NCBI GenBank assembly: GCA_965205925.1
Contig: OZ242183.1
Span: 1,148,641 to 1,212,640, forward strand
From: Candidatus Poriferisodalaceae bacterium
GTDB lineage: Bacteria; Actinomycetota; Acidimicrobiia; Acidimicrobiales; Poriferisodalaceae
Reading direction: 5' to 3'
DNA length: 64,000 nt
Both the position numbers and the translations under genes were made by a program. The notes under the pieces were generated by a model. The model searched no databases. It was not told the origin of the DNA and worked only from the letters and a program-made list of their open reading frames with translations. Below are positions 2,878-22,982 of the stretch, one piece after another; position 1 is the stretch's first letter, and each line of letters opens with the position of its first letter.

Positions 2878-3552
2878 ATGGAACTTGAAGAGGTAATGCG
2901 GACCACGTTTTCGTGCCGTGAGTGGACTGACCAGCCAGTCAGTGACGAGACCGTCTACAAGATCCTGGAGCAAGCACGTTTCGCCCCGAATGGTGGAAAT
3001 CGTCAAGGTTGGCACGTGATCGTTGTGCGAGACCGAGCTATTCGTGAGGCGTTCATTCCGATTATCTCACCAACCACGTCTGTCTATATGGCTCAGGTGG
3101 CCGCGGGAGAAGCTCCGTGGAACACCATCAACCCCACCTCGGTAAATATTGAAATCGAAGCTAAATCGGAGCGGTTGTTTCCAGGGCTGGCAGAAATGGT
3201 GGATGCCCCGGTTGTGTTGGTCGTCAGCGTTGATTTGTCGGTGGTTGCCAGTTTTGACTCGATGCTCAATCGCGTGGGAGTGATCAGCGGTGGATCTATC
3301 TATCCGTTTGTGTGGAACATTTTGCTAGCAGCCAGAAGCAAAGGGCTTGGCGGAGTTCTCACTACCTATCTGGCTGGTCGTGAAGAAGAAGCGCAAAAGC
3401 TGCTAGGCCTGCCCTCATATCACGCAATAGCAGCGATGGTGCCGCTTGGCTATCCCGTCAAGCAGTTAACCAAGCTCAAGCGGCTGGAAGTCGAAGAGTT
3501 TGCGACTGTCGATCGTTTTGACGGCTCGGTCTTTACGGGTGCCGCAAACTAG
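2878..3552 (+). CDS. Nitroreductase-family protein
   Basis: The N-terminal RFAPNGGNRQGWHVIVV motif and overall size are typical of the nitroreductase fold. Confidence 0.7.
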   Translation: MELEEVMRTTFSCREWTDQPVSDETVYKILEQARFAPNGGNRQGWHVIVVRDRAIREAFIPIISPTTSVYMAQVAAGEAPWNTINPTSVNIEIEAKSERLFPGLAEMVDAPVVLVVSVDLSVVASFDSMLNRVGVISGGSIYPFVWNILLAARSKGLGGVLTTYLAGREEEAQKLLGLPSYHAIAAMVPLGYPVKQLTKLKRLEVEEFATVDRFDGSVFTGAAN

Positions 3553-13929: not shown

Positions 13930-14562
13930 CTAGCGCAGTTCGACTCGGCCGTTTGGGCACTCAAACACTGCGGAGATCTCGTCCGGTCCTTCATCTACGT
14001 CTATCGAAAGCCCGATCGCCGAATGCATCTGTCGCACAGTCGCCGGGTCAGCTGTCGAACCATTTAGCGTGATCAGCGTTGCCCCAGTGGGTGTGACCTT
14101 GGACGGGTGAGTAGTGGCGCCCCAGTCGATCACGAACGGCTCTAAGCAAGTGTTAGCCGCAGCGTTGCGAGATAGCCGCCAGTGAATCTGCTCACCGTCG
14201 GGTTTGACCCTGCTCATGGCAGAAATCGGACCTGGATCGAAACCATGTGAAGCCATTGCTGTTGTGACCTCGTCAATGGTTTGCGGTGGTGTGGCGTGGA
14301 TGCAAAAGCTAGCTAGGCGACCTTCTCCGGCCGCTAGATCGTCGACGCCAAATGGGCGTGGCACGTCGGGATCTGGTTGGTTTGGGTCGGGTGCGATTAT
14401 CTCTAGATAGACGTTTTCGCCAAGCGACAGCAGCGCGTTGTAGGTACCTACACCTGGATGCGGCCCGCCCGGAGTTGCTTTTACGCCGGTGAGATCTTCA
14501 ATGTGAGAGACGCCAGTAGCGAGATCGGTACAAGCAAAAACTAGATGATCAATATCAGCCAT
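13930..14562 (-). CDS. VOC/glyoxalase-like domain protein
   Basis: IDHLVFACTDL...GGPHPGVGTYNALLSLGENVYLEIIAPDP resembles the glyoxalase-like fold. Confidence 0.6.
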   Translation of the reverse strand: MADIDHLVFACTDLATGVSHIEDLTGVKATPGGPHPGVGTYNALLSLGENVYLEIIAPDPNQPDPDVPRPFGVDDLAAGEGRLASFCIHATPPQTIDEVTTAMASHGFDPGPISAMSRVKPDGEQIHWRLSRNAAANTCLEPFVIDWGATTHPSKVTPTGATLITLNGSTADPATVRQMHSAIGLSIDVDEGPDEISAVFECPNGRVELR

Positions 14563-14628: not shown

Positions 14629-17600
14629 TTAGTAGTTTTCCCTGATGTAGGCGTAAGCACGGTCGAACAACTCTCCAGTTACTGGAAGTTCGTATTTCTT
14701 TAGCAACAGGCGTACTTCGCGTCTTACTCCTTGATCGCCAGGAGTAGATGATTGCCAGCCTGTTCCGCGTGAAGGATCCACGATCGCATCAACATCCATA
14801 ACAATCCGTTCCAAGATTTCCGGCCGTTTATCTGGCGCGTACTCCAAGAAGATTTGTGTGAGAGCTCCTTGTCGAGGGTTAAGCACTTTGAATTCATCTA
14901 AGCGTCCCTCATCATCAGCACGCTCCGCTCGCACGACTTCACTAGCAACTTCCATCAGGTGTTTTAGAAAATCCACAGATGCCTCGGCATCGGCGATTTT
15001 TTTGGCTCGCAAGGCTTCCAGCCGCTCAGACAAAGTGCGCCACACACGATGCGGGTCTGTGCCTTCTGTGCGGCGACGAATACGTTCTTCTAGTCGGTCC
15101 AACACTTCCACTGCAGATGGAGGCGGTTTTTGGATGTCGGTTTCGGGAATGAGTGTTAGATCATGCTCTCGCAGGAAATCCAGAGTTTCAGCGTCAAGAG
15201 CAATCTGATCCAAAGCGGTGCCGTCAATAGTTACGCCAGTGAGGTTCTCGTGAACTAGCGCCATGGTTTTGGCCCCTAGGCGGTGCCATAGCAGCATGTT
15301 CCCAACATTTGACGGAGCGATCGATGCGTAGACCTTTGCAAGAAAGTTGTAGCGACTCTCATGCTCATTGAAACGCTCGTCGGGTGAAAGGAACTCGTAG
15401 AGGCCCTGACACTGCATGAATTCTTTAGCGAACTGTTGCCTGCTCTCGTCTCCTTTAAGGATCTCCTGAGCGTTGGATATCCGAGCAAAAGTGGGTTGTG
15501 TGCGGTCGATCTTCTCGAACCGTTCCCAAGCGATATTGGTTGCATCTATAAGTTCGGTCAGTAGTACTTGTATGTCGCCTTCGTTTCTCTTTGGGAGAGC
15601 GGTGTGCTTGACTGCAACCGCACGGGCGAGATCCTCACCCATACCGACGTAGTCGACAACAAGCCCGAACTGCTTCTCTTGCCCAGTGCGCTGGTTTGTC
15701 CAACGCCGGTTAGTACGACAAACCGCTTGAAAGAGCGTGTGCGCTCTCAGAGGCTTATCTAGATACATCACACCCTCAATTGGTGCGTCAAAACCAGTGA
15801 GCAGCTTGGCAGTCACGATGAGGAATTTCAACGGGTCATCTAGATCGCGGAAACGATTCTTGACGGCGGCTTCTTGATCTCGGTCAAGATCCCAACCGCT
15901 CCATTCCTGAGGATCACCTTTGTCAGTGGTCATGACTACTGTGGCTAGCTCGCCAGGCTTAAGAAGTTCTTTCAGTTCCTCGTAGTAGGCAACGCAGGTT
16001 GCGCGGTCGTACGCAACGATTTGAGCTTTCAGCCCTAGCGGAGCGATGCGTTCTCGATAGTGCGTGACGATGTCTTGGCACACGGCCCGTACTCGCTTCG
16101 GGTTCTGCACTACTACAGACTGATGCCCAGCCTTGCGGCTGATGAACTCTTTTTCCTCATCGTCTAGATCTTCTTCTTCGGCGAGGCTGTCGAATGCTTG
16201 CTGAAGCACATCACCGTCAAAGTGAAAATTGACCAAACGGGTCTCAACGTGCACTGGCAATGTGGCTCCGTCGTAGATCGATCGCTCAACTGAGTAGTGA
16301 TTTAGTGCACCATCAGGATCATCGGGGTCGCCAAACATTGCCCACGTGTTGCGATCTTCTGATGAAATTGGTGTGCCTGTGAGCCCAATGAACTTGGCGT
16401 TTGGCACCGCAGCGCGCATGTTCTGTCCGAGCCGACCTTCTTGTGTGCGATGGGCTTCATCCACCATCACCACGATGTTGTCGCGCTCGTTGAGCAGCCC
16501 AGCATCTTTGAAGCGGTAAATCGTGGTGATAATCACCCCGCGTGAATCTTCCGACAACAATCGCCGCAAATCTTCTCTTGTTTGCGCCACCCTCATAGTG
16601 GGGATGCCTACCGACTCAAACTCTGAAGCGGTTTGTTCAATCAAGTCCAATCGATCCAGTACCACAACGATCGTGGGAGCGTCTAGCTCCGTGTAGTGCC
16701 GTAGTTTCGCTGCTGCATATGCCATTGCAAACGTTTTGCCCGAACCTTGGTGGTGCCAGACCAAGCCCTGCTGTTTGTTTGGATCAAGGCAGCGTTTCAC
16801 GATGGCATCCACCGCCTCCACCTGGGGATAGCGCGGAATAATTTTCTGCCTTACGGCTCCCTGCGATGTGGGTCGAGACGAGTAGAGCGTGTAGTGCCGC
16901 AAAATATCCAACACCATTTCAGGGGTTAGCAGCAGCTCGGTGGAGCGCATCACAGCCGGGATACCTTCCGGCAGCATGCTGTCCGTGGTCTTGGACCAGT
17001 TCAGCCACATCTCAGGTGGCTGTCGTACTGCCCCATAGCGAAAATCACGACCATCGGTCGCAAACGACAACACGTTCGGCACAAAGAAGGCAGGGGTCTT
17101 CATCTCATAGCCGTTGTGGATGTCCGTTGCTGCATTCAGCCACGAATTGTTTGTCATCGGTGCTTTGGTCTCTCCAACCACCAACGGAATGCCATTTACC
17201 CACAGCACAATGTCGTAACGGCGATGCTCTCTACCAGCATGGAAAGTTGCCTCAGCGCTTACACGCAAGATGTTTGCACGAGGGTTATCGAAATCGATCA
17301 GTTGAACCTGAGAGTGCTGATCCATCCCTATGTATTTGCAGGCACGGCGGCCGCATAGCCACGCCACGAATTCTTCATTGGCAGCCAAAAGCCCATCGTT
17401 TGGTGCTGACAGCAATACTGCAAGCAGCTTTGGAAGAACCTCTCCTGCGCGTGACGGTTCTTCAGCGATTTCGGGGTTCAGTTGAACCATTGCTGCTTGC
17501 AACTCATCGAAGCGGACTACTTCGTCGTACCGGCGACCAAGTTCCTCGTCGTCCAGTGCTAAATCCCAGCCAAGTTCCGCAAGTTTTTCGCACAGTCCGT

Positions 17601-17631
17601 TTTGGACGGTGCGTTCCACAAGATCGGTCAT
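14629..17631 (-). CDS. hsdR: Type I restriction enzyme, R subunit (HsdR)
   Basis: 1000 aa. N-terminal nuclease region (DIVLWVNGIPLVVGETK), SF2 helicase motifs (HHQGSGKTF, VMVDEAHRTQ, GLTGTP, QAVCRTNR). Its ATG overlaps the hsdS stop (ATGA). Confidence 0.92.
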   Translation of the reverse strand: MTDLVERTVQNGLCEKLAELGWDLALDDEELGRRYDEVVRFDELQAAMVQLNPEIAEEPSRAGEVLPKLLAVLLSAPNDGLLAANEEFVAWLCGRRACKYIGMDQHSQVQLIDFDNPRANILRVSAEATFHAGREHRRYDIVLWVNGIPLVVGETKAPMTNNSWLNAATDIHNGYEMKTPAFFVPNVLSFATDGRDFRYGAVRQPPEMWLNWSKTTDSMLPEGIPAVMRSTELLLTPEMVLDILRHYTLYSSRPTSQGAVRQKIIPRYPQVEAVDAIVKRCLDPNKQQGLVWHHQGSGKTFAMAYAAAKLRHYTELDAPTIVVVLDRLDLIEQTASEFESVGIPTMRVAQTREDLRRLLSEDSRGVIITTIYRFKDAGLLNERDNIVVMVDEAHRTQEGRLGQNMRAAVPNAKFIGLTGTPISSEDRNTWAMFGDPDDPDGALNHYSVERSIYDGATLPVHVETRLVNFHFDGDVLQQAFDSLAEEEDLDDEEKEFISRKAGHQSVVVQNPKRVRAVCQDIVTHYRERIAPLGLKAQIVAYDRATCVAYYEELKELLKPGELATVVMTTDKGDPQEWSGWDLDRDQEAAVKNRFRDLDDPLKFLIVTAKLLTGFDAPIEGVMYLDKPLRAHTLFQAVCRTNRRWTNQRTGQEKQFGLVVDYVGMGEDLARAVAVKHTALPKRNEGDIQVLLTELIDATNIAWERFEKIDRTQPTFARISNAQEILKGDESRQQFAKEFMQCQGLYEFLSPDERFNEHESRYNFLAKVYASIAPSNVGNMLLWHRLGAKTMALVHENLTGVTIDGTALDQIALDAETLDFLREHDLTLIPETDIQKPPPSAVEVLDRLEERIRRRTEGTDPHRVWRTLSERLEALRAKKIADAEASVDFLKHLMEVASEVVRAERADDEGRLDEFKVLNPRQGALTQIFLEYAPDKRPEILERIVMDVDAIVDPSRGTGWQSSTPGDQGVRREVRLLLKKYELPVTGELFDRAYAYIRENY

Positions 17632-18203
17632 ACGGCTTCCAGCAAGGCGTCGTATGAGTCGGGTATTTCGTGTTCGCCTGACAGCAGGTTGATGAGCACA
17701 CCATCTCGCAATGAGCGTGTGTGAACGATCGCCTTTTCGGTTGCTTGCAGCATCTGATCCGCCCCGCTGATGATTTCAATGATCCGCTGCTGTTCTTCAA
17801 GTGGCGGGAGATTCATCTGTATGGCTGCGACGTTTTTTCGAGAGATTTCACGGAAAGTATTGCCAGTGGATCGAATTATGAATTCGCGAGTGTTTGCCTG
17901 ACACCAATACATAGCGAATCGCGGCAGAAGATCTGACCCACATATCAACGATGTGAAGCCTTGATTGGTTGCTAAGGGCACGCCTGACAGCGCAACTGCT
18001 CCAATCGTGGCGCGTGAGGTAAGAAGCACGGTGTCAACCGGCAACATCTTTGCCGATGAGTTGGCAAGACCTTCTCTAGTGATTTTTCGAGCAGAGTCGT
18101 TGATGTAGTCGCCTTGGTTAGCGACAACTTCGGCTGGTGTTATCCAAATGATGTCGCCATTCCAGTACTCAGGAGTCTTTGTTGATGGAGTTCCGCCTAA
18201 CAC
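17628..18203 (-). CDS. hsdS: HsdS fragment 3: TRD3 plus C-terminal conserved coiled-coil region (half-size S subunit as sequenced)
   Basis: GGTPSTKTPEYWNGDIIWITPAEV and TNQGF are typical TRD motifs. The C-terminal LPPLEEQQRIIEII... is the conserved helix. In-frame sequence continues upstream (EKEWRQVALGDVVEI) to the G9 tract. Confidence 0.8.
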   Translation of the reverse strand: MLGGTPSTKTPEYWNGDIIWITPAEVVANQGDYINDSARKITREGLANSSAKMLPVDTVLLTSRATIGAVALSGVPLATNQGFTSLICGSDLLPRFAMYWCQANTREFIIRSTGNTFREISRKNVAAIQMNLPPLEEQQRIIEIISGADQMLQATEKAIVHTRSLRDGVLINLLSGEHEIPDSYDALLEAV

Positions 18204-18258
18204 AATCTCAACGACGTCACCGAGCGCTACCTGACGCCATTCTTTCTCTGCTTGCTCT

Positions 18259-18267
18259 GGGGGGGGG
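18259..18267. repeat. G9 homopolymer (C9 on the coding strand) at the CR2|TRD3 junction of hsdS
   Basis: Counted directly. It encodes ..LTPP(P).. and one extra base would fuse CR2 to TRD3. Confidence 0.95.
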
Positions 18268-18972
18268 TCAGTAGTTCTGTGAGGAGCGCTTCACGAGAGA
18301 TTTCGGCTTTGATGGCAGATTGGCCTTGTGCCTCGATGTAGGCGTCGACCGAATCAAGGAGTTCCACGATGCGTCTCTGCTCCTTGAGAGGGGTATTAGG
18401 ACTTCAGTTTCCAAGTAATTGCCCAGATCCAGATTGCGAATATTGGTGCCACGCTGGTGTTCAAATGCCTTCCCTTGACGATGTAACGACCAAAGCTCAT
18501 AGAAAAGAAATTTCGGTACCACTTCGTCTCTGTCTGCCCTGAGCAGGGTCAAGAAGTTTGAGAACGAAGAAGGCTCTTGGCCAATTTCACTCACATACAC
18601 GACCCGCCCCGGCAATGTTGGAGTGCCAGCACTCTTTTGAATCAGGATGTCTCCTTCTTCAAGTGTGCGGCTTGCTAACTGTTTCTTAGTCAGAGAACGA
18701 GTTGCCCCAGCAGGCTTAATCAAGACACCATCGTTTGTGAACTCAGTCTGTCTGAATACTTGAACATCGATCTCGCTTTCCCCGAAGTTCTTGCCCCATA
18801 CACCACCTAGTTTCTTTGAAAGCAAAGCTGAGAGCGTTACCTGACGCCATTCTTTACGCATGTCAGGCGGTCTTAGGAGCTCGACGAGCAACGCTTGGCG
18901 GGCTGTCTGGCCAGTTGTGAGTTGCTGTTCGAGAGCGTCGAGGTAGGTGTCGATTGATTCGATGAGATCCAC
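18268..18972 (-). CDS. hsdS: HsdS fragment 2: CR1 plus TRD2, frameshifted before CR2
   Basis: DLIESIDTYLDALEQQL...RKEWRQVTLSALLSKKLGGVWG...NIRNLDLGNYLETEVLIP, then an out-of-frame tail. CR2 (LKEQRRIVELLDSVDAYIEAQGQ...) is readable in the next frame. Confidence 0.8.
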   Translation of the reverse strand: MDLIESIDTYLDALEQQLTTGQTARQALLVELLRPPDMRKEWRQVTLSALLSKKLGGVWGKNFGESEIDVQVFRQTEFTNDGVLIKPAGATRSLTKKQLASRTLEEGDILIQKSAGTPTLPGRVVYVSEIGQEPSSFSNFLTLLRADRDEVVPKFLFYELWSLHRQGKAFEHQRGTNIRNLDLGNYLETEVLIPLSRSRDASWNSLIRSTPTSRHKANLPSKPKSLVKRSSQNY

Positions 18973-19412
18973 GATCCGGCGTTGCTCCTGGGGGGGGGTA
19001 TTAGGATTGGGAATTCAACCAAACGTTTCTTGGTTATGTGCTTCATGGTTGTTCCATGCGCTTGTTTCTCTAAGTCTTTGATGGCATTTTGTAATACCCA
19101 AGCAAGCCACCCAATTTGGACTTTTTTCGAGGGAATGACCTTAAAAAGGTGCTGATTTAGAAGAGCGGGACCACGATCCCAGAAGCGCACAGCCAATGTG
19201 GCAGACCAAGAGAAGACTAGGTCGCCGTCATCAATCTGAAATCGATCTGGGATCTCTACTTCAGATCGGTCAGGGATTTCTTGAGGATTCAATAGCTGTT
19301 TGATTCGGATGACAGGTTTCCCGGTTGTTCCAAGTTCAGATGGCTTAAAGGGGTAGCCGTTGTTGAATACCGCGATATCGCCAAGTTTTGATTCACGCCA
19401 GCCGTCATTCAT
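18873..19412 (-). CDS. hsdS: HsdS fragment 1: TRD1, frameshifted at a G9 tract
   Basis: MNDGWRESKLGDIAVFNNGYPFKPSE...LVEFPILIPPP, then an out-of-frame tail of about 38 aa. ATG 19412 overlaps the hsdM stop (ATGAATGA). Confidence 0.8.
   Translation of the reverse strand: MNDGWRESKLGDIAVFNNGYPFKPSELGTTGKPVIRIKQLLNPQEIPDRSEVEIPDRFQIDDGDLVFSWSATLAVRFWDRGPALLNQHLFKVIPSKKVQIGWLAWVLQNAIKDLEKQAHGTTMKHITKKRLVEFPILIPPPRSNAGSWISSNQSTPTSTLSNSNSQLARQPAKRCSSSS
18990..18998. repeat. G9 homopolymer at the TRD1|CR1 junction of hsdS
   Basis: Counted directly. With one extra base the reading is ..FPILIPPPQEQRRIVDLIESIDTYL.. Confidence 0.95.
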
Positions 19413-20918
19413 AGCCAGCGGCCTTGAGTCGCTTGTCCATCGCCAACTGAGCTTCTGCAAGCTGTTTCTGGGCTTGGCGTAGGTCGGTAAGAGCTTCGCC
19501 TACGTCGATGATTTCATCGGCGTCTTGTTGTATGTAGCGACCGATGTTGAGATCCCAGCCGTTGGTTTCTATTTCGCTGATATCTACGGTCGATTGCTTG
19601 ATCCCGTCTGCCTCTACATCGGGATCTAGGTATGCCTCAAGTAGCGCTGCCACGTCGCCATCGCCAAGTGTGTTCTGGCTGCGGCCGGACTCGTATCGCT
19701 GAGAGCCGTCGATGATGCGAACTTTGCCCTTAGATGCCTTGTCTTTACTATTTCGCAAGATCAGCAGGCACGCAGGGATAGAAGTGCCGTAGAAAAGATT
19801 TGGCCCAAGACCGATGAGGGCTTCAAGCAAATCTGTCTCAAGAATGTACTGTCGTATACGTCCCTCAGCACCTGATCGAAACAGGGCGCCGTGAGGCATT
19901 ACGACCCCGACCTTGCCGGTGTTGGGTTTAGCAGAAGCGAGCATGTGCTGAATCCAGGCGAAGTCAGCGTTGTTTTTTGGTGGAACGCCTCCTAGTTCGG
20001 AACGGTTGTGTGGGTCATCTGCCCAGACTTCTCGCCCCCACTCTTTAAGTGAAAACGGTGGGTTGGCGATGACTACGTCAAACTGGCTGAGCTTTCCTTT
20101 GTTGTCGACAAAGAGTGGGTTGCGAAGCGTGTCACCTCTGCGAATGGTTGTGTCTTCCACATCTTGGATGTAGAGGTTCATTCGACCTATTGCCGATGAG
20201 GTTTGGTTTACCTCTTGGCCAAAGAATCGCATCCGAGCGGTGGATCTGCCCGAAGTCTTGATTTCTTTGGCGACTTCGATCAGCATGCCCGCAGAGCCGC
20301 ATGCCGGGTCATAGACCGTGTCGGTTTCAGTGGCTGCAAGAATCTTGACTAGGAGGTGTACGACTCCTCGAGGGGTGAAAAACTGCCCAGCGTTGGCAGC
20401 GTTTTCGTCTGAGAACTGCTTGAGCAAGTACTCGTACCCATCACCCAACATGTCGTGGGGCACTTGGCTAGGCGAGATGTTGTAACGGTTGAAGTGATCA
20501 ACCAGCCGTTGGAGACGTTCAGGCGGCATTCGATTTGAATCAGCCCAGGAGGCGTTGCCAAAGATCCCCGCGAGTCGATCTGGGTTGGCTTGTTCAATCT
20601 TTTGCGTTATCGCTTGGATTGCTACACCGTGGTTTTCAGTGACACGGCGTAAATCCTCCCAATGGCACCCATCCGGGATGGCGAACTTGTGAAAATCGGA
20701 TTTGGCAATCTCTTGAGTGAGTTCGTCACCCCACTCAGCTTCTGCTTCAGCCTGCTTTTCATCCCAAGTGTCCGACAGCAGTTTTAGGAAGAGAATCGGG
20801 AAAATGAAATCCCGCAGGTTGACTGGATCTACCGGACCTCGGAGGATGTCGGCGGCTCCCCAGAGCCAAGATTCAAGCTCTTGCTGAGATAGTGCTGGGG
20901 GAGGGGGGGGGTCGTCAT
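19405..20918 (-). CDS. hsdM: Type I R-M N6-adenine DNA methyltransferase (HsdM), start codon out of frame in this sequence
   Basis: Motif I DPACGSAGML, motif IV NPPF, and FFTPR. The conserved HsdM N-domain (LSQQELESWLWGAADILRGPVDPVNLRDFIFPILFLKLLSD...) is in frame with the 19405-20529 ORF. It has no ATG/GTG/TTG upstream of 20529. The only plausible ATG (20918-20916) is displaced by one base across the G9 tract. Confidence 0.85.
20903..20911. repeat. G9 homopolymer (in the context GGGGG-A-GGGGGGGGG) four nt downstream of the hsdM ATG
   Basis: Counted directly. G10 would give MTTPPPPPALSQQELESW... Confidence 0.95.
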
Positions 20919-20960
20919 CCGCCGGTCATCATTTGACCTAGTGACGGCGCGTTAGTTGAG

Positions 20961-21033
20961 TGGAGCTAAGGGGAATCGAACCCCTGACCTCTTCCATGCC
21001 ATGGAAGCGCTCTACCAACTGAGCTATAGCCCC
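20961..21033 (-). tRNA. tRNA-Ala (anticodon GGC)
   Basis: Minus strand reads GGGGCUAUAGCUCAGUUGGUAGAGCGCUUCCAUGGCAUGGAAGAGGUCAGGGGUUCGAUUCCCCUUAGCUCCA. It folds as a cloverleaf with a G3:U70 pair, anticodon loop AUGGCAU and a GGUUCGAUUCC T-arm. CCA is not encoded. Confidence 0.9.
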
Positions 21034-21956: not shown

Positions 21957-22982
21957 TTAAGCAGCCTTCAAGTCGTTGAAGATAGTGCTCCAGCGGTCAG
22001 ATTCTCCCTCATAGGGCGCATAAAAGCTAACCCTGTCCACTACGTCGCTGTAGCGACCCTTCAACGCTGTTGCCACCTTCTCAGGTTCAGCCACTACTGC
22101 AAACGCGCTCAAGATGTCGTCGGTGATCAGATTGCCCATCTCCACCCACTTGCCTTCTTTAGACATTCCGTTTAGCTCGGTTTGCAGATCACCCCAACCG
22201 TGGCAGTCCAACACCGGTCGATAAGCAGGGGTAGAACCATAAAACGCAATCTGCTGCTTGACGCCCTGTGTGGCTTTGTCCATTTGCTCTTCGTTGTTGC
22301 CGGTAACAATGAATGAAGGCCCGGAGATGGTGATGTCGTTAAGCGACCGACCAGCTTTGGCAGCCCCACGCTCTAGCGCAGGGATGGTTTCTTCACGCAG
22401 ATATTTCTCAGTGGTAAACCCGTGGCACATAAACAGATCACAGGTCTCACCAGCGACCTCAGTCATCAATGGCCCAACACCAGCCAACGCCACTTTGGGA
22501 GCGCCATACGGATTTTCGCCCGGATGAAAGAACGGACTCATCAACGTGTGCTGATAAAAGTCACCTTGAAAATTCAGCTTCTCGCCAGTATTCCAGCTAT
22601 TCCAAATGGCCTTGACGGCGAGAATCATCTCACGCATGCGAGCCGCAGGTTTTGACCATTCCATTGAAAAACGCTTAGTGATGTGCGGCTTGATCTGGCT
22701 ACCTAACCCCAGAATGAACCGGCCACCTGAGAGTAGTTGTATGTCGTTGGCGCTGTAAGCCAACGACATCGGATTACGAGCAAACCCCACCACGATGCTG
22801 GTGCCAAGCTCAACACTGTCGGTCGCATGCGCCATCAGAGGCAGCATCGTGAACGGGTCGTGGCTGGTTTCGGGCACCCACAATCCGTCGTAGCCAAGTT
22901 CTTCTTGTTTGCGGGAGGACTCCATGAGCCCGTCAAATCCGCTAGTTACACCAATACCGCCATCTACCTTCATGACTGCCAC
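21957..22982 (-). CDS. LLM-class (luciferase-like) F420-dependent oxidoreductase
   Basis: EELGYDGLWVPETSHDPF, GGRFILGLGSQ and the length of about 340 aa are typical of actinobacterial LLM F420 enzymes. Confidence 0.75.
   Translation of the reverse strand: MAVMKVDGGIGVTSGFDGLMESSRKQEELGYDGLWVPETSHDPFTMLPLMAHATDSVELGTSIVVGFARNPMSLAYSANDIQLLSGGRFILGLGSQIKPHITKRFSMEWSKPAARMREMILAVKAIWNSWNTGEKLNFQGDFYQHTLMSPFFHPGENPYGAPKVALAGVGPLMTEVAGETCDLFMCHGFTTEKYLREETIPALERGAAKAGRSLNDITISGPSFIVTGNNEEQMDKATQGVKQQIAFYGSTPAYRPVLDCHGWGDLQTELNGMSKEGKWVEMGNLITDDILSAFAVVAEPEKVATALKGRYSDVVDRVSFYAPYEGESDRWSTIFNDLKAA

What the first reader, a model, noticed from the sequence alone, without database searches (positions are those of the whole stretch)
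17628..19412. hsdS encodes three TRD+coiled-coil modules, and every module junction but the last carries a one-base frame break in a G run
A usual S subunit is TRD1-CR1-TRD2-CR2. Hand translation of the minus strand here gives three modules.
- TRD1 is MNDGWRESKLGDIAVFNNGYPF...LVEFPILIPPP, and CR1 is QEQRRIVDLIESIDTYLDALEQQL...RKEWRQVTL.
- TRD2 is SALLSKKLGGVWG...NYLETEVLIP, and CR2 is PLKEQRRIVELLDSVDAYIEAQGQ...LLTELLTPPPEQAEKEWRQVAL.
- TRD3 is GDVVEIVLGGTPSTKTPEYWNGDI..., and CR3 is LPPLEEQQRIIEIISGADQML....

The frame breaks sit at the module borders: G9 at 18990-18998 (TRD1|CR1), GGGG at 18390-18393 (TRD2|CR2) and G9 at 18259-18267 (CR2|TRD3). I checked the frames codon by codon, and each site needs exactly +1 nt to continue the protein. 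The CR1 and CR2 DNA share CTAATACCCC...AGGAGCA...ATCGTGGA and AAAGAATGGCGTCAGGTA, so they are also recombination substrates.

As sequenced, only TRD3+CR3 (from GTG 18203) keeps both a TRD and a dimerisation helix, giving a half-size S subunit. Homopolymer-controlled truncation of hsdS that changes specificity is established for NgoAV of Neisseria gonorrhoeae. A three-module S gene with slippery tracts at the module borders could, in principle, produce several alternative S proteins (TRD1+2, TRD2+3, TRD3 alone and so on). I do not know of this architecture being described, particularly in Actinomycetota.
Basis: partly seen in the sequence, partly recalled or inferred. Interest (0 to 1): 0.75.

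Follow-up and report, generated by a model that had tools for sequence, protein, structure and literature searches.

The report
Repeat-switched three-module restriction specificity gene
A bacterial DNA-defence (type I restriction-modification) operon, probably from a sponge-associated actinobacterium, carries runs of nine C's at the start of its methylase gene and at two domain borders of an unusual three-domain specificity gene. The same runs sit at the same places with different lengths in four related genomes, so this is most likely a slippage-driven on/off and specificity switch of a partly known kind, caught here in the off state.

Summary
The minus-strand hsdS (19412-17628) encodes three TRD+coiled-coil modules, giving three Pfam Methylase_S hits. 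It is broken at C9 (18998-18990), C4 (18393-18390) and C9 (18267-18259). Each break needs +1 nt.

A third C9 (20911-20903) in codons 3-6 of hsdM puts the methylase out of frame, so the whole system is OFF as sequenced.

These three runs are the only G/C runs of 7 or more in the 64 kb. Four related genomes (Acidimicrobiia, Ca. Poriferisodalaceae-like) carry the same operon downstream of tRNA-Ala(GGC). Their tracts lie at the same three positions but with other lengths (C9, C10, C11, C15, C16). At the CR2|TRD3 border two of them have (AG)4 or (AG)15 instead. Their frame states run from a canonical two-module S protein to an intact 587-aa three-module ORF.

An ATG at the start of TRD2 is present in all five loci. 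Off-frame stop codons lie 4 and 14 nt upstream of it, which suggests reinitiation when TRD1 is disconnected.

Three-TRD "extended" hsdS genes with a repeat before the last TRD are already published (Mannheimia haemolytica, Fusobacterium nucleatum). The new elements are three repeats in one operon, the restart site and the host lineage. Tract lengths come from long-read metagenome consensus and could not be checked against reads.

The parts
20960..21033 (-). tRNA-Ala(GGC), directly upstream of hsdM. It is a conserved landmark of the locus.
   Evidence: ARAGORN finds it in the window. The same tRNA lies directly upstream of hsdM in L001, L151, L144 and L145.
19405..20918 (-). hsdM (type I methylase subunit), 504 aa if the tract is C10. 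[quoted passage not shown]
   Evidence: Translations. Pfam gives N6_Mtase at 2.1e-91 and HsdM_N at 5.9e-22 on the corrected protein. The source record also annotates only 374 aa (P0243).
20903..20911 (-). hsdM tract: C9 on the coding strand, in codons 3-6. C10 gives MTTPPPPPALSQQELESW (ON). C9 is OFF.
   Evidence: The homologous tract is C10 in frame in L001 and L144, C10 out of frame in L151, and C16 in L145.
17628..19412 (-). hsdS with three TRD+CR modules (595 aa when frame-corrected).
   Evidence: three Methylase_S stretches.
18999..19412 (-). TRD1 (MNDGWRESKLGDI...LVEFPILI).
   Evidence: Methylase_S at 1.1e-21 on the TRD1+CR1 module. The as-sequenced ORF still hits at 3.6e-15.
18990..18998 (-). 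Tract 1 (TRD1|CR1): C9, OFF. C10 gives LIPPPQEQRRIV.
   Evidence: The homologous tract is C9 in L001, C10 in L151 and L144, and C15 in L145.
18873..18875 (-). TAA that ends the frame-shifted TRD1 ORF, 11 nt (14 nt start to start) upstream of the internal ATG.
   Evidence: A stop occupies the same position (TAA, TGA or TAG) in all five loci.
18859..18861 (-). Internal ATG (PPDM|RKEWRQVTL) at the first residue of TRD2. It is a candidate reinitiation start.
   Evidence: Conserved in 5 of 5 three-module loci, with a TGA at -4 in the other off frame. Absent in 24 of 26 junctions scored in other hits. A gene call in L001 starts there (P0153, 409 aa).
18862..18989 (-). CR1 (coiled-coil helix 1).
   Evidence: Translation. 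The CRs cluster by slot across genomes.
18394..18858 (-). TRD2 (RKEWRQVTLSALLSKKLGGVWG...ETEVLI).
   Evidence: Methylase_S at 1.8e-07 on the TRD2+CR2 module. It is 47% identical to TRD1 of L001.
18390..18393 (-). Site 2 (TRD2|CR2): C4 where C5 would give the canonical LIPPLKEQRRIV. This is a one-base loss in a short run, not a long tract.
   Evidence: The junction is in frame and has no long tract in L001, L151, L144 and L145.
18268..18389 (-). CR2 (coiled-coil helix 2).
   Evidence: The 72-nt direct repeat with the CR1 junction is 78% identical.
18259..18267 (-). Tract 3 (CR2|TRD3): C9, OFF. C10 gives LLTPPPEQAEKEWRQVALGD.
   Evidence: The homologous site is C10 in frame in L001, C11 in frame in L151, (AG)15 in L145 and (AG)4 in L144.
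17628..18258 (-). TRD3 + CR3 (EKEWRQVALGDVVEIVLGGTPSTK ... EIPDSYDALLEAV*). The only ATG/GTG/TTG start as sequenced is GTG 18203.
   Evidence: Methylase_S at 1.1e-27. TRD3 is 72-76% identical to L001 TRD3, L145 TRD3 and L151 TRD2.
14629..17631 (-). hsdR, an intact 1000-aa ORF whose start overlaps the hsdS stop (ATGA).
   Evidence: Pfam gives HSDR_N, SWI2_SNF2, ResIII and T1R_D3-like. There is no long homopolymer inside it.

Best explanation
This is a type I restriction-modification operon (tRNA-Ala, then hsdM, hsdS, hsdR) whose expression and specificity are set by slippage-prone repeats. The mechanism below is proposed from sequence; only the anatomy and the length differences between genomes are shown.

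**Three switches**
1. A poly-C tract in codons 3-6 of hsdM turns the whole system ON (C10 here) or OFF.
2. A poly-C tract between TRD1 and CR1 decides whether TRD1 is attached to the rest of HsdS.
3. A repeat between CR2 and TRD3 decides whether TRD3-CR3 is attached. The repeat is poly-C here and (AG)n in some relatives.

**Expected products**
- Tract 1 in frame, tract 3 out: the product is a canonical TRD1-CR1-TRD2-CR2 subunit.
- Tract 1 out of frame: ribosomes stop 4 or 14 nt before a conserved ATG at the first residue of TRD2 and can reinitiate. That gives TRD2-CR2-TRD3-CR3 if tract 3 is in frame, or a TRD2-CR2 half-subunit if it is not.
- Both tracts in frame: the product is a three-TRD 'extended' subunit of the kind described in Mannheimia haemolytica.

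Each product would direct the same M and R subunits to a different DNA motif.

**State of the window**
In the window genome all three long tracts are one base short of their in-frame length. In addition, a C5 run at TRD2|CR2 has lost a base. As sequenced, the locus is therefore phase-OFF and its TRD2-CR2 link is damaged.

**Shown versus inferred**
- Shown: the anatomy, the conservation of the tract positions, and the length and frame differences between genomes.
- Inferred: switching within a population, reinitiation at the internal ATG, and the specificities.
For: **Anatomy**
- Three Methylase_S modules are present.
- All four frame breaks lie in C runs.
- No stop codon lies inside any module frame, and hsdR is intact.

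**Non-randomness**
- The three G9 runs are the only G/C runs of 7 or more in 64 kb, against 0.16 expected.
- Long ORFs cover 93.6% of the window, and I saw no other split gene.

**Orthology**
- L001, L151, L144 and L145 have the operon after the same tRNA-Ala(GGC).
- Their flanking genes are 86-95% identical to those of the window at the protein level.

**Same positions, different lengths and states**

| Genome | hsdM tract | Tract 1 | Tract 3 | Result |
|---|---|---|---|---|
| L001 | C10, ON | C9, OFF | C10, ON | 409/450-aa TRD2-CR2-TRD3-CR3 ORF |
| L144 (133x) | C10, ON | C10, ON | (AG)4 | 382-aa two-module S, plus a separate 194-aa TRD3-CR3 gene |
| L151 (71x) | C10, out of frame | C10, in frame | C11, in frame | intact 587-aa three-module ORF |
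| L145 | C16 | C15 | (AG)15 | hsdS tracts out of frame; hsdM start not identified |

**Restriction to this clade**
- Among 143 loci carrying HsdM relatives (1.56 Mb), runs of 8 or more inside hsdM or hsdS occur only in L001 and L002.
- Of the 120 closest HsdM proteins, only three have a Pro or Gly run at the N terminus.

**Restart site**
- The ATG at the TRD2 start is present in 5 of 5 loci.
- A stop lies at -14 in one off frame, in three different codon forms. A TGA lies at -4 in the other off frame.
- The Met is absent in 24 of 26 junctions scored in other hits.

**Precedent in the literature**
- Nine-base mononucleotide tracts phase-vary at about 10^-3.
- hsdM 5' SSRs are predicted to act as ON/OFF switches.
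- Three-TRD hsdS genes switch motif with tract length: CAACN4GT versus CAACN5TC (PMC7383803).
Against: - No reads were available, so tract heterogeneity within one population is not shown. The length differences are between related species or strains.
- All assemblies look like long-read metagenome consensus, where 9-16-nt homopolymer lengths can be off by one. L145 has only 7x coverage.
- In the window all four lesions are -1. That pattern could be a deletion-biased artefact or decay.
- The C4 site is not a fast switch. With it, no canonical S protein containing TRD2-CR2 can be made here even if the long tracts revert.
- I saw no Shine-Dalgarno-like sequence before the internal ATG.
- The hsdM start in L145 could not be identified.
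- Whether a three-TRD protein is functional in this family is unknown.
Confidence: 0.7

Rival explanations
1. Plain decay. In this genome the type I system is a dying pseudogene cluster. The frameshifts are ordinary inactivating mutations that happened to fall in C runs, and the locus does not switch.
For: There are four separate frameshifts in 3.3 kb, including one at a short C4/C5 run that no relative carries as a tract. hsdM lacks its N-terminal domain as sequenced.
Against: hsdR is an uninterrupted 1000-codon ORF, and every hsdS module is stop-free in its own frame. Every lesion is exactly -1 in a C run, and none lies elsewhere. Three of the four sit in tracts that are conserved in position in four orthologous loci where they are often in frame. 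Random decay would not place and conserve 9-16-nt tracts at a gene start and at domain borders.
Confidence: 0.12
2. Consensus artefact. The tracts are real, but their lengths (C9 x3, perhaps C4) are under-called by long-read consensus. The true genes would then be in frame, with no OFF state in this genome.
For: All four breaks need +1 nt, which is the signature of homopolymer under-calling. The relatives' contig names (ctgN_NNx_c/l) suggest a long-read metagenome assembler, though this is my reading of the names and no sequencing metadata were seen. The tracts are the longest homopolymers in the window.
Against: The other G5, C5 and C6 runs and the A/T runs of 5-7 in the window coincide with no other split gene, and ORF coverage is 93.6%. 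An error at a C5 run would therefore be exceptional. In relatives of similar provenance the same tracts are called C10 or C11 and are in frame (L144 at 133x, L151 at 71x), so under-calling is not systematic. This rival touches only the ON/OFF calls, not the existence or conservation of the tracts.
Confidence: 0.18
3. Recoding instead of heritable switching. The C9 tracts are sites of transcriptional slippage or -1 ribosomal frameshifting (C CCC CCC fits the X XXY YYZ slippery pattern). Full-length M and S proteins would then be made at a set low level from one fixed genotype.
For: All sites need a -1 shift. Runs of nine identical bases are known slippage substrates (my own knowledge). 'OFF' SSR frames in a Mycoplasma mod gene remain partly expressed by frameshift suppression (bioRxiv 10.64898/2026.04.01.715767, abstract).
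Against: A recoding site should keep the out-of-frame arrangement across relatives. Here the same sites are in frame in L001, L144 and L151, and the lengths vary from 9 to 16. At tract 3 some relatives have a dinucleotide repeat instead. Leaky expression may add to DNA-level switching but is unlikely to replace it.
Confidence: 0.07

Closest known systems
'Extended' three-TRD phase-variable hsdS of Mannheimia haemolytica (G[n]) and Fusobacterium nucleatum (AAGAC[n]) (Atack et al. 2019, FASEB J, PMC7383803)
   Same: One hsdS gene has three TRDs. An SSR between the second and third TRD gives either a two-TRD or a three-TRD product. In M. haemolytica the tract is a G/C homopolymer of 10-12 nt, and the two forms have different methylation motifs.
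   Different: This locus has a second long tract at TRD1|CR1 and a third in hsdM of the same operon. In M. haemolytica the SSR-bearing hsdM belongs to a different system. This locus also has a conserved internal ATG with flanking off-frame stops. The host is an uncultured Acidimicrobiia lineage rather than a host-adapted pathogen. No methylome data exist for it.
NgoAV of Neisseria gonorrhoeae FA1090 (poly-G in hsdS; PMC9577141, citing Adamczyk-Poplawska 2011)
   Same: Homopolymer length in hsdS decides which TRDs end up in one polypeptide, and so changes specificity: GCAN8TGC versus GCAN7STCA.
   Different: In NgoAV the truncated HsdS1 (208 of 410 aa) is an active specificity subunit. Here tract 1 precedes CR1, so the truncated product is a TRD with a 38-aa out-of-frame tail and no helix. 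The other modules must be expressed by a restart.
hsdM genes with a 5' SSR, e.g. H. influenzae CGAGA[n] and M. haemolytica ACAGC[n] (PMC7383803)
   Same: The SSR lies in the 5' part of hsdM and is predicted to switch the methylase, and hence the whole system, ON or OFF.
   Different: The tract here is a mononucleotide run at codons 3-6. It is combined with two hsdS tracts in the same operon.
Domain movement of TRDs within hsdS of Helicobacter pylori (Furuta et al. 2011, PMC3077401; only the abstract start was seen)
   Same: The same TRD sequence type occupies different slots in related genomes, while the conserved regions stay in place. L001 has types [C,B,A] and L151 has [B,A,new].
   Different: Three slots are involved instead of two. 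This was observed between genomes of metagenome-assembled relatives, and the mechanism was not examined.
Inverting, multi-hsdS type I systems such as SpnD39III and other epigenetic invertons (PMC7394358, PMC7672463)
   Same: Both generate several specificities from one set of M and R subunits.
   Different: No second hsdS copy and no significant inverted repeat lie in or near the gene. No recombinase appears among the syntenic neighbours annotated in the relatives. Switching here would occur by slippage, not inversion.

Membership tests
Type I restriction-modification system | HsdM with HsdM_N and N6_Mtase domains | tested here: met
   N6_Mtase scores 306.9 bits and HsdM_N 79.2 bits on the tract-corrected protein. 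As sequenced, only 374 aa without HsdM_N are in frame.
Type I restriction-modification system | HsdS built from TRDs (Methylase_S) alternating with conserved coiled-coil regions | tested here: met
   Three Methylase_S stretches are found. The AF2 model of the intact L151 orthologue shows three TRD folds and three helices of about 43 residues. Its best PDB match is HsdS 5ybb_D, with a target-normalised TM-score of 0.86.
Type I restriction-modification system | HsdR with an N-terminal nuclease domain and an SF2 motor, in one operon with hsdM and hsdS | tested here: met
   HSDR_N, SWI2_SNF2, ResIII and T1R_D3-like all hit. The gene order is hsdM-hsdS-hsdR with overlapping stop and start codons.
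SSR-driven phase-variable (contingency) locus | A repeat inside the ORF that is long enough to slip (at least 9 nt for mononucleotides; criterion of PMC7383803) and whose unit is not a multiple of 3 | tested here: met
   Three C9 tracts are present. Site 2 (C4) does not meet the criterion.
SSR-driven phase-variable (contingency) locus | Tract length differs between strains or relatives at the same site and changes the reading frame | tested here: met
   Lengths of C9, C10, C11, C15 and C16, and (AG)4 or (AG)15, occur at homologous sites in five orthologous loci, with both in-frame and out-of-frame states. The comparison is between related genomes, not clonal isolates.
SSR-driven phase-variable (contingency) locus | Reversible length heterogeneity within one population | not testable with these tools
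   No reads are available. The exact-sequence look-up of the window's HsdR found no other assembly.
'Extended' three-TRD hsdS (Atack 2019) | Three TRDs in one hsdS reading frame when the tract is in frame | tested here: met
   The corrected 595-aa protein has three Methylase_S stretches. The natural intact example is the 587-aa ORF of L151.
'Extended' three-TRD hsdS (Atack 2019) | SSR located between the second and third TRD | tested here: met
   Tract 3 at 18259-18267 lies between CR2 and TRD3.
'Extended' three-TRD hsdS (Atack 2019) | Two-TRD and three-TRD forms methylate different motifs | not testable with these tools
   This needs methylome data or heterologous expression.
NgoAV-type truncation switch | The truncated product keeps TRD1 plus a conserved helix and works as a half-size S subunit | tested here: not met
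   Tract 1 lies upstream of CR1. The OFF product is TRD1 plus a 38-aa out-of-frame tail that ends at TAA 18875-18873.
Inverting / shufflon-type hsdS | Extra hsdS copies flanked by inverted repeats, plus a nearby recombinase | tested here: not met
   No inverted repeat pair lies within hsdS, only short and probably chance pairs. The window holds a single hsdS. No recombinase appears among the annotated syntenic neighbours of L144, L145 and L151.

The most novel reading that the evidence does not exclude
A single operon acts as a three-repeat combinatorial switch. One tract gates the methylase. Two further tracts, together with a conserved termination-reinitiation site at the TRD2 start, select which neighbouring pair of three interchangeable TRDs (or which single TRD) is assembled. 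The result would be up to four DNA specificities plus OFF from one hsdS gene. The arrangement is maintained in a clade of sponge-associated Acidimicrobiia, and TRD cassettes also migrate between the three slots.
Probability: 0.35. Interest if true: 0.72.

Novelty: new variant of a known kind. Interest (0 to 1): 0.6.

Why it matters
Phase-variable methyltransferases are mostly known from host-adapted pathogens, and hsdS repeat switching has been demonstrated experimentally for very few systems.

This locus puts the three known repeat positions into one operon: the hsdM 5' end, the TRD1/TRD2 region, and the site before a third TRD. It also adds an apparent restart site. If it works as proposed, a reduced-genome (about 2 Mb) uncultured sponge-associated actinobacterium could cycle among several restriction specificities and an unprotected state without extra genes.

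That would bear on three questions:
- phage defence and DNA uptake in dense sponge microbiomes;
- epigenetic heterogeneity in symbionts;
- how a three-TRD S subunit assembles with M2, which the published Mannheimia haemolytica case leaves open.

Practically, it shows that 'pseudogene' calls for hsdM and hsdS in long-read MAGs can hide switchable genes.

Tried and rejected
- **Exact look-up of the window's HsdR.** It found no encoding contig, although a 100% identical protein is in the protein collection (P0001). I therefore obtained no second assembly of the same genome.
- **Metagenome scan with HsdM.** No hit exceeded 64% identity, and none carried tracts.
- **Short-read contigs of close relatives.** L147 and L152 stop before or inside hsdS and were uninformative.
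- **Two-module relatives.** L148, L149, L153 and L154 have two-module hsdS genes. L148 and L149 were checked and have no long tracts; L153 and L154 were not checked for tracts. L150 also has a two-module hsdS but carries a G10 upstream of hsdM and a G9 inside CR1.
- **Cluster look-up.** It gave no organism names.
- **Promoter and terminator scan of the locus.** Promoter-like sites were below the shuffled expectation (3 against 4.8) and none lies between the tRNA and hsdM. Terminator-like matches were more numerous than in shuffles (16 against 7.4) but I did not find any of them informative for the locus.
- **Foldseek on the three-module model.** It confirms a canonical two-TRD core, but the output does not say which two modules form it. 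It cannot decide how a three-TRD subunit assembles.
- **Inverton or recombinase switching.** Rejected, because there are no inverted repeats and no second hsdS.
- **Generalised sequencing error.** Rejected, because long ORFs cover 93.6% of the window and I saw no other split gene.
- **Half-S subunit from GTG 18203.** Considered and set aside. The ORF lacks the first 17 profile positions of the domain, I saw no ribosome-binding site in the upstream sequence, and hsdM is OFF anyway.

Full report
**1. What is in the window**

All features below are on the minus strand.

- A tRNA-Ala(GGC) lies at 21033-20960.
- About 40 nt downstream is an ATG at 20918, followed immediately by a C9 run (20911-20903).
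- The HsdM body (LSQQELESWLWGAADILRG...) continues to 19405 in a frame that this ATG reaches only if the run is C10.
- With C9, the first possible start in the HsdM frame is at 20529. That gives 374 aa without the HsdM_N domain. The source record annotates exactly this truncated protein (P0243).
- hsdS follows at 19412-17628, overlapping the hsdM stop.
- hsdR is an intact 1000-aa ORF at 17631-14629, with HSDR_N, SWI2_SNF2, ResIII and T1R_D3-like domains.

**2. Check of the observation**

- Three-frame translation shows the frame path 0 -> 2 -> 1 -> 0. The switches are at C9 18998-18990, CCCC 18393-18390 and C9 18267-18259.
- One added base at each site gives a 595-aa protein with three Methylase_S stretches.
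- Each module scores above Pfam's cut-off of 22 bits on its own: 78.2, 32.0 and 97.7 bits.
- Every module is free of stop codons in its own frame.
- The three G9 runs (on the + strand) are the only G or C runs of 7 or more in 64 kb. Shuffles predict 0.16.
- Long ORFs cover 93.6% of the window, and I saw no other split gene. The frameshifts are therefore concentrated in this operon and are not a general quality problem.
- The CR1 and CR2 junction DNA is indeed paralogous. One direct repeat is 72 nt at 78% identity, and another is 24 nt at 96%. Both are spaced one module (605-610 nt) apart.

Site 2 needs a correction. Read in both frames, the junction is ...EVLIP / PLKEQRRIV.... A C5 run would give the canonical LIPPLKEQRRIV, so the window has C4 where C5 is expected. 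The 10-nt in-frame form of tract 1 (C10) aligns base for base with CCCCCTCTCA at site 2. Tract 1 therefore looks like the usual Pro-Pro-Leu junction codons converted to all C (and direct reading).

**3. Relatives**

*Searches*
- A scan of species-representative genomes with HsdM found as best hit (76% identity) a complete 2.08-Mb chromosome labelled Ca. Poriferisodalaceae (L001). NCBI taxonomy places this family in Acidimicrobiales, Actinomycetota.
- A protein search with HsdR, followed by contig look-ups, added L144 (2.07 Mb, circular, 133x), L145 (825 kb, 7x) and L151 (31.7 kb, 71x).

*Orthology*
- All four relatives, like the window, have tRNA-Ala(GGC) directly upstream of hsdM.
- Their flanking genes are 86-95% identical to the window's at the protein level. 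HsdM and HsdR are only 69-77% identical.
- These are therefore orthologous chromosomal loci in a small clade, and the R-M genes have diverged faster than their surroundings.
- All four relatives have a three-module hsdS.

*Tract states*

| Genome | hsdM tract | Tract 1 (TRD1\|CR1) | TRD2\|CR2 junction | Tract 3 (CR2\|TRD3) | Outcome |
|---|---|---|---|---|---|
| Window | C9, OFF | C9, OFF | C4, out of frame | C9, OFF | all broken |
| L001 | C10, ON | C9, OFF | in frame | C10, ON | TRD2-CR2-TRD3-CR3 ORF |
| L151 | C10 after a different 5' context; needs C11, OFF | C10, ON | in frame | C11, ON | intact 587-aa three-module ORF with three Methylase_S stretches |
| L144 | C10, ON | C10, ON | in frame (C6) | (AG)4 | 382-aa TRD1-CR1-TRD2-CR2, plus a separate 194-aa TRD3-CR3 gene whose ATG overlaps the stop (TAATGA) |
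| L145 | C16, start not identifiable | C15, OFF | in frame | (AG)15, OFF | hsdS broken at both repeats |

*How restricted the feature is*
- More distant relatives have ordinary two-module hsdS genes of about 370-420 aa.
- Among 143 loci holding HsdM relatives, runs of 8 or more inside hsdM or hsdS occur only in L001 and L002.
- Of the 120 closest HsdM proteins, only those of L001, L144 and L146 have a Pro or Gly run at the N terminus.
- Of the 120 best HsdS hits, only the L151 protein is about 590 aa long.
- The tracts are thus a derived feature maintained in position within this clade. Two different repeat types at the CR2|TRD3 border argue for selection on mutability at that site rather than on a particular sequence.

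**4. A restart site**

- In all five three-module loci the first residue of TRD2 is a Met, in the context (P/S)P(D/E)M-xx-W(R/Q)(E/Q)V.
- One off frame has a stop 14 nt upstream of this ATG. It appears as TAA, TGA, TAA, TGA and TAG in the five genomes, arising from different Leu and Arg/Lys/Val codon pairs.
- The other off frame has a TGA 4 nt upstream.
- Whichever way tract 1 is out of frame, ribosomes translating TRD1 therefore terminate right before that ATG.
- The Met is absent in 24 of the 26 junctions that could be scored in the other hits.
- A gene call in L001 starts at this ATG (409 aa, P0153).
- I infer termination-reinitiation. It has not been shown, and I saw no obvious Shine-Dalgarno sequence.

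**5. Mechanism proposed**

- The hsdM tract gates the whole system.
- Tract 1 attaches or detaches TRD1. Because it lies before CR1, the detached product has no helix. This is unlike NgoAV, where the truncated HsdS1 is an active specificity subunit.
- Tract 3 attaches or detaches TRD3-CR3, as in the published 'extended' hsdS genes.

Expected products:

| Tract 1 | Tract 3 | Product |
|---|---|---|
| ON | OFF | TRD1-CR1-TRD2-CR2 (as in L144) |
| OFF | ON | TRD2-CR2-TRD3-CR3 by restart (as in L001) |
| OFF | OFF | TRD2-CR2 half-subunit |
| ON | ON | three-TRD protein (as in L151) |

- In the two genomes where hsdM is ON, hsdS encodes a canonical two-module protein. With only two cases this is no more than suggestive.
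- An AlphaFold2 model of the L151 protein has mean pLDDT 84.7 and pTM 0.68. It shows three TRD folds and three long helices.
- Its best PDB match is the HsdS chain 5ybb_D, with a TM-score of 0.86 normalised to the 390-residue target. Two modules therefore form a canonical core, but the tool does not report which two.

**6. TRD mobility**

- TRD sequence types occupy different slots in close relatives. L001 has [C,B,A] and L151 has [B,A,new].
- CR1, CR2 and CR3 remain slot-specific, at 80-90% identity between these two genomes.
- The direct repeats at the junctions are plausible substrates for such exchange.

**7. State of the window genome**

- All three long tracts are one base short of ON, and the C5 run at TRD2|CR2 has lost a base.
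- The operon is OFF as sequenced. Even with the long tracts back in frame, TRD2 would remain unlinked to CR2 until the slower C4-to-C5 change occurs.
- This pattern fits a lineage that has stayed phase-OFF, with deletion-biased slippage accumulating under relaxed selection.
- It also fits partial under-calling of homopolymers in a long-read consensus. I cannot separate these without reads.
- Neither reading affects the conservation argument.

**8. Comparison with what is known**

Atack et al. 2019 (PMC7383803) surveyed REBASE. Their points relevant here:
- 7.8% of hsdS genes and 2% of hsdM genes carry SSRs.
- hsdM SSRs lie mostly at the 5' end and are predicted to act as ON/OFF switches.
- hsdS SSRs lie between TRDs.
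- 'Extended' three-TRD hsdS genes occur in M. haemolytica (G10-12; CAACN4GT versus CAACN5TC) and in F. nucleatum (AAGAC[n]).
- In M. haemolytica, the hsdM gene with an SSR belongs to a different system from the G[n]-bearing hsdS.
- My term search of the main text found no mention of a gene with two SSRs or of an operon combining hsdM and hsdS tracts. I did not check the supplementary tables.

NgoAV remains the experimentally characterised hsdS tract.

The present locus is therefore a new variant of a known kind. Its distinguishing points are three repeats in one operon, a tract placed before CR1, an apparent restart site, and a host clade of uncultured sponge-associated Acidimicrobiia.

**9. 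Verdict**

- Novelty is moderate. Interest is 0.6.

Noticed in passing
L002:9294-9305: An Acidimicrobiales MAG (65% GC, HsdM 69% identical) has a C12 tract near the 3' end of hsdM. The reading frame breaks there (called as 456 aa). Its hsdS is an ordinary two-module gene.
   Followed up: partly
L146:3101-3130 and 3175-3183: A 3.2-Mb, 67%-GC relative has a G30 and a G9 run in the 5' end of hsdM (MSVGGGGGGGGGGVV...GGVSQQELESW). This is poly-G (Gly) where the window clade has poly-C (Pro). An IS element (HTH_Tnp_1 + rve) lies just upstream.
   Followed up: partly
L150:788-797 and 2945-2953: A G10 lies about 40 nt upstream of the hsdM ATG. An in-frame G9 lies inside CR1 of a two-module hsdS, in a short-read contig whose HsdR is 70% identical.
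   Followed up: no
L145:5316-5345; L144:5399-5406: The CR2|TRD3 border carries (AG)15 in L145 and (AG)4 in L144, where the window, L001 and L151 have poly-C. In L144, TRD3-CR3 is a separate 194-aa gene with its own ATG overlapping the upstream stop (TAATGA).
   Followed up: yes
L001:9490-11339 vs L151:4241-6004: TRD types sit in different slots in two close relatives ([C,B,A] versus [B,A,new]), while CR1, CR2 and CR3 stay slot-specific. This looks like TRD cassette movement within a three-slot gene.
   Followed up: partly
window 21957-22982 and 13930-14562, compared with L001, L144, L145 and L151: Flanking genes (a luciferase-like oxidoreductase and a Glyoxalase_3-like protein) are 83-95% identical to the relatives at the protein level. 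HsdM and HsdR are only 69-77% identical. The R-M genes have diverged much faster than their conserved chromosomal site.
   Followed up: partly
L052:10997-12586: A Bacteroidaceae MAG (horse faeces) has a 530-aa stop-to-stop ORF with three Methylase_S stretches and no long repeat. Three-TRD S genes also exist without SSRs in unrelated taxa.
   Followed up: no
window 14204-14223 and 18533-18552: A 20-nt inverted repeat is 95% complementary. One arm lies in TRD2 of hsdS and the other in the gene downstream of hsdR, 4.3 kb apart. It is probably a chance match.
   Followed up: no
L145:9743-12499; L144:9377-14997: Further defence-type genes lie next to the operon in relatives. L145 has a 918-aa HsdM_N + N6_Mtase + SLFN_AlbA_2 fusion. 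L144 has a C5 DNA_methylase, an MZB-domain protein and a large helicase.
   Followed up: no
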